A stretch of 64,000 bases of DNA from a virus (taxonomy: Duplodnaviria > Heunggongvirae > Uroviricota > Caudoviricetes): IMG/VR virus record IMGVR_UViG_3300025778_000009. One strand, 5' to 3'. The notes under the pieces are model-generated. The model did not search any database, was not told the origin of the DNA, and saw nothing but the letters and a program-made list of their open reading frames with translations. Every line of letters starts with the position of its first letter. Position 1 is the first letter of the stretch. This document shows positions 49,165-50,879 of the stretch, one piece after another. The translations under genes and the position numbers were made by a program.

Positions 49165-50223
49165 ATGGGTTTGCTGCTTTTTTCTATGCGAGGTGAACAA
49201 TATCAAGAAACGTTTCAATCACTTCCTTTACCTGATTGGAGCCCAAGAAAATTTCCATTCACACAATCGGTCAGTCGTATTGTTAGAGGTATAGACCCGT
49301 TTAATTACACATCAGTATGTGAACCTATTTCTGATATTGTTAATATGCCAGTAAACAGATTTTCTTTTGAAGAAATGTGTTTACAAAGAGCGTTTGAAAT
49401 GAAAAAATTAGATAGCAATATCTATATAATGTACAGTGGTGGTATAGATAGTACATCAGCTCTAGTTGCATTTTTATTAACATGGACTTTAGAAGATCTT
49501 AAAAGAGTTTTTATTGTAACCTCAGATGAGAGTAGAATAGAGTATCCTGAATTTTGGGTAGATATATGCAAAGTTTTTGAAGGAAGAATTTTAACATCTT
49601 TTGATCATGTTGAAAATTACTGCAAAAAAGGATATGTAATTACAGGTGAGCATGGCGATCAGTTATTTGGTAGCGATGTTATTAATAGTTCAGTTCATCA
49701 TTTTGGTTATAAGTCAATTCATGCACCCTGGCAAGTATATATTCCTACTGTATATTATAAAATGTTTGGTTCTAAAATATCTAATAATATGATCGATGTT
49801 TATGAGCCTTTGCTAGAGTATTGCCCATTTAAGCTCAAGTCTACGTTTGATTGGTTATGGTGGTTTAATTTCACTAATAAATGGCAACATGTAAAATATA
49901 GGATGTTATCTTTCAGCCCGTGGGAAGATCCTAAAAACAACTTTAAGAAAATTATTCATTTTTATGATACACCGCAATGGCAACGCTGGAGTTTAGATAA
50001 TCATGATAAAAAAATGGGACCTACGCTTTACGATTACAAATTTGTAGCTAAAGATTTTGTTATCAAGTATACAAAACATGAATCTTTTAGAAATAAAAGA
50101 AAAGAAGGTAGTTTAAGTAATGTTTGGAATCAATTTGAATGTTACTATGCAATAGATACAGATTTTAATTTTTTAACCTTCGAAGAAGGTATCAAATATA
50201 TTAATAAAGGAGATAAGAGATGA
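49165..50223 (+). CDS. PP-loop ATP pyrophosphatase (adenine nucleotide alpha-hydrolase superfamily) with an uncharacterised C-terminal domain
   Basis: IYIMYSGGIDSTSAL is the SGGxDS PP-loop. An ATG at 49165 follows GGAGTGGG. The tracked ORF begins at a TTG at 49144. Confidence 0.6.
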   Translation: MGLLLFSMRGEQYQETFQSLPLPDWSPRKFPFTQSVSRIVRGIDPFNYTSVCEPISDIVNMPVNRFSFEEMCLQRAFEMKKLDSNIYIMYSGGIDSTSALVAFLLTWTLEDLKRVFIVTSDESRIEYPEFWVDICKVFEGRILTSFDHVENYCKKGYVITGEHGDQLFGSDVINSSVHHFGYKSIHAPWQVYIPTVYYKMFGSKISNNMIDVYEPLLEYCPFKLKSTFDWLWWFNFTNKWQHVKYRMLSFSPWEDPKNNFKKIIHFYDTPQWQRWSLDNHDKKMGPTLYDYKFVAKDFVIKYTKHESFRNKRKEGSLSNVWNQFECYYAIDTDFNFLTFEEGIKYINKGDKR

Positions 50224-50879
50224 TTTTATTTGAAAATGGTTTATATGAGCCTATTGATGCTAGAGATACAATGTATCCATCATTTGCACAAATGGTAGTA
50301 AATACTGAAAAGACAATAGACTGTAATTATGCAACAGTGTATGGGTTTTCTTATGGTGATGGTAAAATAGAAATTGATAGTGAAATTTATACTCTAAAAG
50401 CTGGTGAATTCTTTTCTATACCTGTAAGGGAAAATAAGCCAACATTTAGTACAACAAGTTCTATCTTTACTGTAGTACGTTTAGGTTTTATAGGACAACA
50501 TGTAATAGGTAAAATTGAAAAGACCGGTCGTCTATCTTACATCGATGGTTGTTCAGATACTATGTTAGTATATCCACCTCGTTTTGGTGATCCAAGTCTT
50601 AACTATCTTCACTTCCCTTCAAACATAAATCAATCATTCCATACACATCCTAGTATTCGATTTGGTATTGTAATTAGCGGTGAAGGTTACTCAACTCTAC
50701 AAGATAGTGAAACTAAACTTTCTTCTGGATCTATTTTCTGTTTAGAAGAACAAGAATTGCATAGATTTAGAACTGAAAATTCTCATATGAATATTATTGC
50801 TTATCACCCAGACGGTGAATGGGGCCCAACAGATGAGAACCATACTATGTTAAACAGAACATATCTAGCAGGTAAATAA
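50220..50879 (+). CDS. cupin-fold protein
   Basis: FHTHPSIRFGIVISGEGYSTL...GSIFCLEEQELHRF fits cupin motifs 1 and 2. Confidence 0.5.
   Translation: MILFENGLYEPIDARDTMYPSFAQMVVNTEKTIDCNYATVYGFSYGDGKIEIDSEIYTLKAGEFFSIPVRENKPTFSTTSSIFTVVRLGFIGQHVIGKIEKTGRLSYIDGCSDTMLVYPPRFGDPSLNYLHFPSNINQSFHTHPSIRFGIVISGEGYSTLQDSETKLSSGSIFCLEEQELHRFRTENSHMNIIAYHPDGEWGPTDENHTMLNRTYLAGK

What the first reader, a model, noticed from the sequence alone, without database searches (positions are those of the whole stretch)
49165..50879. Second PP-loop ATPase with a novel C-terminal domain, co-transcribed with a cupin protein at the left edge of the island
An SGGIDST PP-loop, as in Asn-synthetase C-terminal domains, QueC, TilS and ExsB, opens a 350-aa protein whose remaining sequence I cannot assign. 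The next gene is a cupin with HxH...E/H metal motifs and overlaps the ATPase stop by 4 nt. PP-loop enzymes adenylate a carboxylate or carbonyl for amidation or thiolation, and cupins often act as oxygenases or isomerases. Together they may form an extra tailoring step for the modified base or a nucleotide-sugar.
Basis: inference. Interest (0 to 1): 0.55.

Follow-up and report, generated by a model that had tools for sequence, protein, structure and literature searches.

The report
Orphan asparagine-synthetase-like ligase plus bicupin cassette
The two genes are real and form a widespread, uncharacterised enzyme pair (an ATP-using ligase related to asparagine synthetase plus a metal-binding bicupin), but the pair belongs to the phage backbone and to many bacteria, and is not part of the neighbouring DNA-base modification island.

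Summary
Observation confirmed. ORF 49165-50223 (352 aa) carries SGGIDST at residues 91-97. It overlaps by ATGA a 219-aa cupin gene (50220-50879), which joins a peptide deformylase gene by TAATG.

No Pfam, NCBIfam, PHROG or PADLOC model detects the protein. The family has about 1,950 clusters at 50% identity.

The partner is a bicupin with a three-histidine site. The two genes are neighbours in 41 of 60 bacterial and 21 of 46 viral loci, and in 38 of 50 loci when starting from the cupin. A third accessory gene of about 200 aa usually accompanies them but is absent from this window.

7-Deazaguanine genes accompany the pair in only 1 of 46, 0 of 60 and 2 of 50 loci. At least 12 T4-like phages have gp46-ligase-accessory-cupin-deformylase with no island, and one phage has the island and cupin without the ligase.

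So the base-tailoring interpretation is not supported. The substrate remains unknown.

The parts
49165..50223 (+). Stand-alone asparagine-synthetase-type (PP-loop) synthetase-domain protein, 352 aa; member of an unnamed family
49435..49455 (+). PP-loop SGGIDST (residues 91-97)
   Evidence: S91, G92, G93, D95 and S96 are invariant in 241 members. Aligns to AsnB LSGGLDSS.
49642..49674 (+). Second adenylation motif TGEHGDQLFGS (residues 160-170); E162/D165 correspond to E. coli AsnB Glu348/Asp351
   Evidence: HMM and profile alignments to AsnB LSGEGSDEVFGG. D165 and G169 are 98% conserved.
49678..49950 (+). Family-specific insert (about residues 172-262) holding the invariant WWxNFxxKWQ..R motif; presumed substrate-specificity region
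   Evidence: No counterpart in the AsnB profile alignment. W232, W233, K239, W240, Q241 and R246 are conserved. The role is inferred.
50220..50879 (+). Bicupin partner, 219 aa; metal site H141/H143/H181 in the C-terminal barrel; Arg147 where the canonical Glu would sit; conserved flexible C-terminal tail
50879..51358 (+). Peptide deformylase gene, translationally coupled downstream neighbour. It is backbone in the T4-like clade and has no shown functional link to the pair.
   Evidence: PF01327, E 1.7e-36. Follows the cupin in T4-like loci. Absent from bacterial cassettes.
48990..49163 (+). 57-codon hydrophobic ORF ending 1 nt before the ligase ATG; conserved in the accessory-less subclade (window, L170, L010)
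   Evidence: 50-77% identity among the three; 1-2 TM-like segments. A role with the ligase is speculative.
48700..48993 (+). 97-aa ORF with a CPVCG...CP zinc-ribbon-like motif and a Gly-rich tail; conserved in the same subclade between gp46 and the ligase
   Evidence: homologues of 110 aa in L170 and 147 aa in L010. No family hit.

Best explanation
Genes 49165-50223 and 50220-50879 form a self-contained enzyme cassette that is independent of the adjacent 7-deazaguanine island.

The first protein is a stand-alone synthetase domain of the asparagine synthetase superfamily (the AsnB, beta-lactam synthetase, carbapenam synthetase and TsnB9 clade).

Most likely mechanism (inferred from the family): it binds ATP-Mg through the PP-loop and the GE-x-GDQ-x-FG motif. 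It adenylates a carboxylate of its substrate, releasing PPi. A nitrogen nucleophile then displaces AMP to form an amide or lactam. There is no glutaminase domain, so the nucleophile must be free ammonia, an amine co-substrate, or an amine within the substrate itself.

The Asp-binding segment of AsnB is replaced by a Trp/Lys-rich insert, so the substrate is not aspartate.

The second protein is a bicupin with a three-histidine metal site. It is expected to carry out a metal-dependent oxidation, isomerisation or hydrolysis on the same substrate, before or after ligation.

In most lineages a third accessory protein of about 200 aa belongs to the cassette; this phage subclade lacks it.

In this phage lineage the cassette is backbone (gp47-gp46-[ligase-accessory-cupin]-deformylase). 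The deazaguanine island is a separate insertion downstream of the deformylase gene.

Shown here: fold, motifs, family, and conserved pairing independent of the island. Inferred: the chemistry. Unknown: the substrate and the biological role.
For: Fold and family:
- AF2 model pLDDT 94.5.
- Foldseek gives the same ranking.
- The profile comparison to 61 PF00733 synthetase domains gives 96.2% probability, E 2.2e-9, 253 columns. Five motifs are collinear: SGGxDS; GE-x-GD-x-FG; (P)F-x-D; [YE]K-xx-[AL][KR], which places K292 at AsnB Lys449; and K/R-x-K-x-G.
- These residues are 98-100% conserved in 241 members.
- There is no glutaminase domain and no GATase hit.

Pairing:
- A cupin orthologue lies within 4 genes, mostly on the same strand at +1, +2 or -2, in 41/60 bacterial and 21/46 viral loci.
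- In reverse, 38/50 cupin loci carry the ligase.
- The ATGA overlap is present in the window.

Accessory family:
- The mid, cl2, c18 and c25 groups are mutually homologous (hhalign 90-97%).

Independence from the island:
-.
- L170 shows its island bracketed by the backbone genes Def and Pyr_excise.

Bicupin:
-.
Against: - Similarity to AsnB is remote. No curated HMM detects the protein, Foldseek E-values are only about 5e-3, and a profile against the single AsnB sequence aligns only the PP-loop.
- No activity, substrate or complex has been shown.
- The pairing is not obligate. About a third of bacterial loci and half of viral ligase loci show no cupin within 4 genes (some are truncated or diverged), and 12/50 cupin loci lack the ligase, for example L171.
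- Two phages (the window and L029) do carry the ligase next to the same island. A lineage-specific recruitment cannot be strictly excluded.
Confidence: 0.72

Rival explanations
1. One reading: the ligase and cupin are an extra tailoring step for the 7-deazaguanine base in DNA, or for a nucleotide-sugar. For example, they would amidate a 7-carboxy-7-deazaguanine-type intermediate and then oxidise or isomerise it.
For: The pair is adjacent and co-oriented with the island in the window, in L170 and near it in L029. 7-Carboxy-7-deazaguanine does carry a carboxylate, and QueC, another PP-loop enzyme, activates it (established knowledge). Phage deazaguanine pathways still have unassigned steps (PMC10516641).
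Against: Island genes accompany the ligase in 1/46 viral and 0/60 bacterial loci, and the cupin in 2/50 loci. At least 12 T4-like relatives have the same gp46-ligase-accessory-cupin-Def order with no island. L171 has the island and cupin but no ligase. The island is bracketed by the backbone genes Def and Pyr_excise. The window already has QueC, QueF, Gat and a DpdN-like formyltransferase, a complete known route. The 2023 survey of phage deazaguanine clusters mentions no cupin or second PP-loop protein.
Confidence: 0.05
2. The cassette modifies a membrane-associated or cell-envelope molecule, for example by amidating a carboxylate on a lipid-linked cell-wall or LPS precursor or on a lipid head group. 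In phages and prophages it would act as a receptor-altering or superinfection-exclusion function; in bacteria, as envelope tailoring.
For: Membrane anchoring appears independently several times. About 12 alphaproteobacterial homologues and 7/256 representatives have strongly hydrophobic terminal extensions. The Bacteroidota accessory family c6 has TM-like segments in 14/15 members. A conserved 57-61-aa hydrophobic ORF precedes the ligase in the window's subclade. In some phage clusters the ligase co-occurs with a fatty-acid-desaturase-like membrane protein. In Mu-like prophages it sits just after the baseplate and tail-fibre genes, a classic position for receptor-modifying morons (the last point is general knowledge). 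AsnB-type enzymes that amidate peptidoglycan mDAP are known (LtsA, AsnB1; from memory).
Confidence: 0.2
3. The ligase acts on a protein or peptide. It would form a side-chain amide or macrolactam as lasso-peptide cyclases do, or modify a tail fibre or adhesin. The variable accessory protein would serve as substrate adaptor or chaperone.
For: AsnB-type enzymes that adenylate Asp/Glu side chains of peptides exist (lasso cyclases; from memory). One family member (P0359) is fused to a phage tail assembly chaperone domain (PF16778, E 1.1e-12). The ligase follows fibre-like genes in Cygsa01 and Mu-like prophages, with the accessory gene where a fibre chaperone normally lies. The accessory protein evolves fast while the enzymes are conserved. 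Up to 4 ligase paralogues occur per cluster.
Against: The fusion is a single case, and its N-terminus is unrelated to the accessory family. No precursor peptide, leader peptidase or RRE was found or enriched. In T4-like phages the cassette sits among DNA-metabolism genes. Viral neighbours show no consistent structural theme.
Confidence: 0.13
4. The cassette makes or converts a soluble small metabolite, as an auxiliary metabolic or secondary-metabolite function. This would be analogous to beta-lactam/carbapenam synthetase working with an iron oxygenase, or to hydrazine synthetases that pair an adenylating domain with a cupin.
For: The closest structural relatives beta-LS, CarA and TsnB9 are small-molecule enzymes. 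Known pathways pair such synthetases with double-stranded beta-helix metalloenzymes (CAS, CarC; from memory), and pair cupins with adenylating MetRS-like domains (PMC2922099; PMC12376268). Radical-SAM enzymes are the commonest annotated neighbours in other phages. The cassette is portable across unrelated genomic contexts.
Against: No transporter, carrier protein or other biosynthetic genes are consistently linked. A 2-3 gene cassette is small for a pathway. No candidate substrate was identified.
Confidence: 0.27
5. It is a nucleic-acid-modifying PP-loop enzyme: TilS-like lysidine/agmatidine chemistry, MnmA/ThiI/TtuA-type thiolation (as annotated in phage Cygsa01), or a second QueC.
For: The weak PDB sequence hits are to TilS (E 0.027-0.037) and LarE, over the PP-loop region only. 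Cygsa01 paralogues are annotated MnmA. The conserved Lys/Arg/Trp-rich surface could bind nucleic acid (inference).
Confidence: 0.05

Closest known systems
Asparagine synthetase B, synthetase (C-terminal) domain (E. coli AsnB, PDB 1CT9; Pfam PF00733)
   Different: There is no N-terminal Ntn glutaminase domain. PF00733 and the NCBIfam AsnB models do not detect it. The segment between the second motif and the PFLD-like motif is replaced by a Trp-rich insert, so aspartate is unlikely to be the substrate. It has an obligate-looking bicupin partner.
Beta-lactam synthetase (1JGT) and carbapenam synthetase CarA (1Q15)
   Different: Those enzymes keep a degenerate N-terminal domain and are about 500 aa. 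Their partners are 2-oxoglutarate oxygenases, not three-His bicupins. No other clavam or carbapenem genes are near the cassette.
TsnB9 hydroxyamidotransferase of trichostatin biosynthesis (7YLZ)
   Different: TsnB9 is 576 aa with an N-terminal domain. Sequence identity is 9%, and there is no trichostatin-type context.
Lasso-peptide cyclases (McjC-type AsnB homologues)
   Same: They are AsnB-derived, glutaminase-independent and ATP-dependent, and form an amide on a macromolecular carboxylate with helper proteins (from memory).
   Different: No precursor peptide, RRE or transglutaminase-like protease is consistently nearby. This was not compared directly by sequence or structure.
Hydrazine synthetases (cupin + MetRS-like adenylating domain)
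   Same: An architectural analogy: a HUP-class adenylating enzyme strictly coupled, by fusion or adjacency, to a metal cupin (PMC2922099; PMC12376268).
   Different: The adenylating fold family differs (class I aaRS, not PP-loop/AsnB). Those systems need a lysine N6-monooxygenase neighbour, which is absent here. Their cupin is a monocupin.
QueC / Gat-QueC of phage 7-deazaguanine pathways
   Same: A PP-loop ATPase that activates a carboxylate. A genuine QueC plus a split Gat lie in the same window at 58235-59610.
   Different: The target is not detected by the QueC model, has no Zn-binding cysteines, belongs to the AsnB clade and does not co-occur with Que/Dpd genes.
Bicupins of the YlbA / DR1152 / ureidoglycine aminohydrolase, BacB, quercetinase and KduI kinds (for the partner)
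   Different: All matches are about equally good, at 7-15% identity. The ligand set is H-x-H...H, with invariant Arg147 in place of the canonical Glu. The conserved flexible C-terminal tail HPDGxWGPTDxNH..NRTY has no described counterpart.

Membership tests
PP-loop ATP pyrophosphatase superfamily | SGGxDS(T) motif after the first strand of a Rossmann-like nucleotide-binding fold | tested here: met
   SGGIDST at residues 91-97 follows strand 85-89. The motif is invariant in 241 members. All significant structural neighbours are PP-loop enzymes.
Asparagine synthetase superfamily, synthetase domain (AsnB / beta-LS / CarA / TsnB9 clade) | Fold similarity over the whole synthetase domain, including the helical half, and better than to other PP-loop families | tested here: met
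Asparagine synthetase superfamily, synthetase domain | Sequence-profile homology, and the second adenylation motif xGEGxDExFGG (E. coli Glu348/Asp351) | tested here: met
   hhalign of A1 against 61 PF00733 domains: 96.2%, E 2.2e-9, 253 columns. The HMM aligns ITGEhGDQlFG to LSGEGSDEVFGG.
Asparagine synthetase superfamily, synthetase domain | Catalytic lysine of the EKxxLR motif (E. coli Lys449) | tested here: inconclusive
   The invariant K292 of YKxxAK aligns with EK449HILR in the profile alignment. No structural superposition or mutagenesis is available.
Glutamine-dependent asparagine synthetase (AsnB proper; TIGR01536 / PF00733 + GATase) | N-terminal class II (Ntn, Cys1) glutaminase domain, and detection by the curated models | tested here: not met
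   The protein starts about 85 residues before the PP-loop. There is no GATase, PF00733 or TIGR01536 hit even at E 0.1. The stand-alone Gat at 58981-59610 travels with QueC, not with this gene.
QueC (7-cyano-7-deazaguanine synthase) | Match to TIGR00364 / PF06508, and a C-terminal Zn-binding cysteine cluster | tested here: not met
   No model hit. No conserved Cys column. The genuine QueC is at 58235-58981.
TilS (tRNA lysidine synthase) | TilS N-terminal domain model, plus C-terminal tRNA-binding domains | tested here: not met
MnmA / ThiI / TtuA-type thiolation enzymes (annotation of the Cygsa01 paralogues) | Catalytic cysteines or Fe-S-ligating cysteines | tested here: not met
   The highest Cys frequency at any alignment column is 58%, and none is conserved. 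No model hit.
Phage 7-deazaguanine DNA-modification system (FolE/QueD/QueE/QueC/DpdA and accessory Dpd enzymes) | Consistent co-occurrence with DpdA and preQ0-pathway genes | tested here: not met
   Island present in 1/46 viral and 0/60 bacterial ligase loci, and in 2/50 cupin loci. At least 12 island-less T4-like relatives carry the cassette. L171 has the island without the ligase. The cassette is not listed in PMC10516641.
Cupin superfamily, bicupin architecture (partner protein) | Two double-stranded beta-helix barrels, and an HxH...H metal motif | tested here: met
Lasso-peptide biosynthesis (C-protein cyclase) | Adjacent precursor peptide, a leader peptidase (transglutaminase-like B protein) and an RRE | tested here: not met
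   None of these is enriched among 130 bacterial or 146 viral neighbours. A single transglutaminase-core gene lies on the opposite strand in L009.
Known anti-phage defence systems (e.g. QatC-containing Qat) | Match to PADLOC models | tested here: not met
   No hit for the ligase, the cupin or the accessory proteins. One weak hit (E 2.5e-4) appears for a Bacteroidota accessory protein.

The most novel reading that the evidence does not exclude
The ligase, the three-His bicupin and the usual accessory protein together form a previously undescribed, widely mobile three-component enzyme system. It spans about 1,950 protein clusters across T4-like and other phages, Mu-like prophage tail modules, Bdellovibrionota, CPR bacteria, Bacteroidota, Alphaproteobacteria and some eukaryote-like sequences. 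On this reading it performs a chemistry not yet known for the asparagine-synthetase clade. Two examples: an ATP-driven amide or N-X bond formation coupled to a cupin-catalysed step on a cell-envelope or virion-associated substrate, or the bicupin acting as the nitrogen-delivering subunit in place of the missing glutaminase domain.
Probability: 0.35. Interest if true: 0.7.

Novelty: new variant of a known kind. Interest (0 to 1): 0.5.

Why it matters
It corrects a tempting guilt-by-association call. Proximity to a DNA-hypermodification island does not make a gene part of it, and this matters for anyone cataloguing phage deazaguanine pathways.

It also defines a large family that no profile library detects (Pfam, NCBIfam, PHROGs, PADLOC). 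The family consists of glutaminase-less asparagine-synthetase-type ligases with a conserved bicupin partner and an accessory protein, common in uncultured phages and in predatory, episymbiotic and other bacteria.

Because the adenylation motifs are intact, the system can be tested directly by biochemistry. Finding its substrate could reveal a new phage-host interaction function or a new reaction for the AsnB clade.

The two 'MnmA' annotations in Pseudomonas phage Cygsa01 are probably wrong.

Tried and rejected
- Pfam, PHROGs, NCBIfam and PADLOC scans of the ligase found nothing.
- A megablast of the region against 50,697 phage genomes found no match. A tblastn of the cupin also found none, and the ligase matched only Cygsa01.
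- hhalign of the family against the single E. coli AsnB sequence aligned only the PP-loop. It was superseded by a proper profile.
- The PDB sequence-profile search returned only weak PP-loop-motif hits.
- The AFDB Foldseek library was unavailable.
- I tested whether the accessory family is a tail-fibre chaperone. No PF16778 hit appeared in 60 members, and hhalign found no similarity to the P0359 N-terminus. Rejected.
- I tested whether the stand-alone class II Gat at 58981-59610 is the missing glutaminase of the ligase. It co-occurs with QueC and the island only, in 1/46 ligase loci. Rejected.
- Neighbour-function enrichment gave no consistent theme beyond radical-SAM enzymes (PHROGs on 146 viral neighbours; Pfam on 130 bacterial neighbours).
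- Long homologues were scanned for informative fusions. Only one turned up, the tail chaperone domain.
- No tRNA genes are in the window.
- Literature searches for an AsnB-like + cupin pairing in phages found nothing specific.
- The cytochrome P460-like and methyltransferase genes near the alphaproteobacterial cassettes did not generalise.
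Full report
**1. What is in the sequence**

The window is an uncultured T4-like phage. Homologues of UvsW, gp55, gp47 and gp46 precede the finding. The gp46 protein is only about 50% identical to its closest cultured relatives: Stenotrophomonas DLP_6, Methylophilales Melnitz and Sinorhizobium phiM12. The region has no nucleotide match among 50,697 deposited phage genomes.

- **The ORF.** It runs 49165-50223 and gives 352 aa from an ATG preceded by GAGGAG. The identical 352-aa protein is on record in metagenomes (P0001).
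- **The PP-loop.** SGGIDST lies at residues 91-97, not at the extreme N-terminus.
- **Gene junctions.** The next gene (50220-50879, 219 aa) overlaps by ATGA. It matches Cupin_2 (E 3.9e-10). Its stop overlaps the start of a peptide deformylase gene as TAATG.
- **Terminators.** No terminator-like site occurs in 48500-51700.
- **The island downstream.** It holds QueE, QueD, an FMN-reductase-like gene, FolE, an HNH endonuclease, a DpdA-like gene, a PurN-like (DpdN-like) formyltransferase, QueF, QueC and a stand-alone class II amidotransferase.

**2. What the PP-loop protein is**

- **Curated libraries.** None detects it: Pfam, PHROGs and NCBIfam at E 0.1, and PADLOC.
- **Family size.** It has 133 close homologues, all unnamed. 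A profile search of 1.84 billion representatives finds 1,948 clusters at E up to 1e-3, of which 890 are at or below 1e-30.
- **Structure.** An AlphaFold model built on 51 homologues is very confident (pLDDT 94.5, pTM 0.92).
- **Foldseek.** It gives the same order, but at weak E-values.
- **Sequence level.** The family HMM aligns two collinear motifs with E. coli AsnB and with a canonical AsnB-like protein from locus L152.
- **Profile-profile comparison.** Against 61 canonical PF00733 synthetase domains it gives 96.2% probability, E 2.2e-9, 253 columns, covering target residues 41-351.

Five motifs line up:

| Target | E. coli AsnB | Note |
|---|---|---|
| YSGGIDST | LSGGLDSS | PP-loop |
| ITGEHGDQLFGS | LSGEGSDEVFGG | E162/D165 correspond to Glu348/Asp351 |
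| HFYD | VPFLD | |
| YK292xxAK296 | EK449HILR | |
| KxK313xGS316 | RQKEQFS | family consensus RpKSGM |

All of these residues are 98-100% conserved across 241 members. Residues about 172-262 have no AsnB counterpart. They hold the family's signature WWxNFxxKWQ..R. No cysteine column is conserved (maximum 58%).

The protein is therefore a single AsnB-type synthetase domain without the glutaminase domain and with a replaced substrate-binding segment. It is not a PP-loop module joined to a novel C-terminal domain. It is not QueC, TilS or MnmA.

**3. What the partner is**

- **Fold.** The cupin has 787 homologues. Its model (pLDDT 87) is a bicupin.
- **Metal site.** Only the C-terminal barrel carries metal ligands: H141, H143 and H181. 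An invariant Arg147 sits where the canonical Glu would be.
- **Tail.** The conserved tail HPDGxWGPTDxNH..NRTY is predicted flexible.

**4. The pair is a conserved cassette**

I fetched 79 viral and 80 bacterial loci encoding ligase relatives, called ORFs and clustered the neighbours.

- **Ligase to cupin.** The cupin is by far the commonest neighbour. Among loci with at least 2.5 kb on both sides, it lies within four genes in 41/60 bacterial and 21/46 viral loci, nearly always on the same strand at +1, +2 or -2.
- **Cupin to ligase.** 38/50 well-flanked viral cupin loci carry one to four ligase paralogues.
- **Third gene.** A small gene sits next to the ligase in most lineages. The groups I labelled mid, cl2, c18 and c25 are one family (hhalign 90-97%). 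The Bacteroidota versions c6 and c7 are not detectably related. This window has no accessory homologue anywhere.
- **Taxonomic range.** Alphaproteobacteria, Bdellovibrionota, Bacteroidota, Acidobacteriota, Chloroflexia, Planctomycetota, Verrucomicrobiota, CPR lineages and Mu-like prophages of Xanthomonas and Burkholderiales.
- **Not obligate.** 12/50 cupin loci lack the ligase, and many ligase loci lack a recognisable cupin.

**5. The cassette is not part of the deazaguanine island**

- **Co-occurrence.** Homologues of QueC, QueD, QueE, FolE or DpdA occur with the ligase in 1/46 viral loci (L029, which carries the same island) and 0/60 bacterial loci. With the cupin they occur in 2/50 loci.
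- **Backbone synteny.** At least 12 T4-like loci show gp55-gp47-gp46-ligase-accessory-cupin-deformylase-Pyr_excise with no island.
- **Close relative L170** (cupin 84% identical). It has ligase-cupin-Def, then a shorter island (QueE, QueD, FolE and unknowns), then the backbone Pyr_excise gene. This shows the island is an insertion between Def and Pyr_excise.
- **Relative L171.** It has gp46-cupin-Def plus an island but no ligase.

Ligase presence and island presence therefore vary independently. The window's island already encodes a complete known route, and its PurN-like gene matches the DpdN class proposed for fdPreQ1 (PMC10516641). That survey mentions no cupin, deformylase or second PP-loop enzyme.

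**6. How it most likely works**

- **Shown.** AsnB-type fold and motifs, no glutaminase domain, a non-aspartate pocket, and conserved coupling to a three-His bicupin.
- **Inferred from the family.** ATP-dependent adenylation of a substrate carboxylate with PPi release, then attack by ammonia, an amine or an intramolecular amine to give an amide or lactam. The bicupin would carry out a metal-dependent step on the same molecule.
- **Unknown.** The substrate.

Leads on the substrate:
- **(a) Membrane association arises independently.** N-terminal TM extensions occur on about 12 alphaproteobacterial homologues and on 7/256 representatives. The c6 accessory family has TM-like segments in 14/15 members. 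A conserved 57-61-aa hydrophobic ORF abuts the ligase start in the window's subclade.
- **(b) Tail-module position.** The ligase sits next to tail genes in Mu-like prophages and in Cygsa01. One family member is fused to a tail assembly chaperone domain.
- **(c) Radical-SAM and desaturase-like neighbours** occur in other phages.

None of these leads generalises. Neighbour enrichment in 146 viral and 130 bacterial proteins shows no dominant function. I therefore rank a soluble-metabolite role, an envelope role and a protein-modification role as open sub-hypotheses, and the base-tailoring and tRNA-type readings as unlikely.

**7. Comparison with known systems and novelty**

The protein works like, and by profile and fold belongs to, the asparagine synthetase superfamily's synthetase domain. 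It fails the tests for AsnB proper (no glutaminase, no curated-model hit), QueC, TilS, thiolases, lasso cyclase systems and defence systems.

The nearest architectural analogies are beta-lactam or carbapenam synthetase working with an iron beta-helix enzyme, and hydrazine synthetases that couple a cupin to an adenylating domain. I found no description of an AsnB-like plus bicupin cassette.

I classify it as a new variant of a known kind: an undetected but large family with a new partner set and an unknown substrate.

**8. Verdict**

The chemistry class and the coupling to the cupin hold. The 'novel domain' and 'base tailoring' claims do not.
- Interest is moderate (0.5). The island link dissolves, but a widespread, experimentally tractable orphan enzyme system emerges.

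Noticed in passing
window 51568-59610: The island has a complete preQ1-type route plus extras: QueE, QueD, FolE, a DpdA-like gene (55742-56533), a PurN-like formyltransferase (56530-57066, DpdN-like, which suggests fdPreQ1), a bimodular QueF, QueC, and a stand-alone class II amidotransferase (58981-59610) abutting QueC, that is, a split Gat-QueC. Having both QueF/DpdN and Gat in one island suggests more than one deazaguanine product. L029 carries the same gene set.
   Followed up: partly
window 53233-53934: An FMN_red-type (NADPH-dependent FMN reductase-like) gene sits between QueD and FolE. The relatives L170 and L171 lack it (QueD is followed directly by FolE). Its role in the island is unknown.
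   Followed up: no
window 54977-55330: An HNH endonuclease gene (PF01844, E 1.4e-5) plus two unknown small ORFs (54763-54975, 55314-55745) lie between FolE and the DpdA-like gene. This is probably a homing-endonuclease insertion inside the island.
   Followed up: no
window 48700-49163; L170 5431-5942; L010 3153-3927: Two small ORFs are conserved only in the accessory-less subclade, between gp46 and the ligase. One is a 97-147-aa protein with a CPVCG...CP zinc-ribbon-like motif and a Gly-rich tail. The other is a 57-61-aa hydrophobic protein (50-77% identical) that ends 1-2 nt before the ligase start. They may substitute for the missing accessory gene.
   Followed up: partly
L170 (7660-12729) and L171 (6407-9504): Close relatives carry shorter deazaguanine islands (QueE, QueD, FolE and unknown ORFs; no QueC or QueF seen) at the same site, after the deformylase gene. 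The site therefore looks like a hotspot where different deazaguanine cassettes are exchanged.
   Followed up: partly
L001 (Pseudomonas phage Cygsa01, PP179332.1) 6781-7689 and 7974-8930: Two paralogues of the ligase family are annotated 'tRNA-specific 2-thiouridylase MnmA'. The family has no conserved cysteine and belongs to the AsnB clade, so the annotation is probably wrong. The genes follow baseplate and fibre-like genes.
   Followed up: partly
protein P0359 (534 aa, from the representatives search): A single family member has an N-terminal phage tail assembly chaperone domain (PF16778, E 1.1e-12) fused to the ligase domain.
   Followed up: partly
proteins P0304, P0321, P0343, P0372: These long family members (552-654 aa) have low-complexity Q/G/P-rich tails and, in two cases, a C-terminal TM anchor. 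They look eukaryotic or giant-virus-like. Their origin was not determined.
   Followed up: no
L152 7535-10966 (Opitutia MAG): A canonical full-length AsnB-like protein (560 aa, PF00733), the bicupin and a 352-aa ligase-family member lie in a row. This is a natural juxtaposition of the classical and the stand-alone forms.
   Followed up: partly
L234 / L240 (IMG/VR contigs): Four ligase paralogues surround one bicupin and one accessory gene. This suggests several sequential ligations, or several substrates, in some phages.
   Followed up: no
L022-L024 5786-6484: In three T4-like loci a 232-aa protein (cluster c30, no Pfam hit) occupies the cupin's position between the accessory gene and the deformylase gene. 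It could be a very divergent cupin or a replacement.
   Followed up: no
L002, L004, L006 (alphaproteobacterial MAGs): A cytochrome P460-like gene of about 400-430 aa lies within about 6 kb of the cassette in all three loci, and L002 and L006 have a pair of methyltransferases directly upstream. This did not generalise to other phyla.
   Followed up: partly
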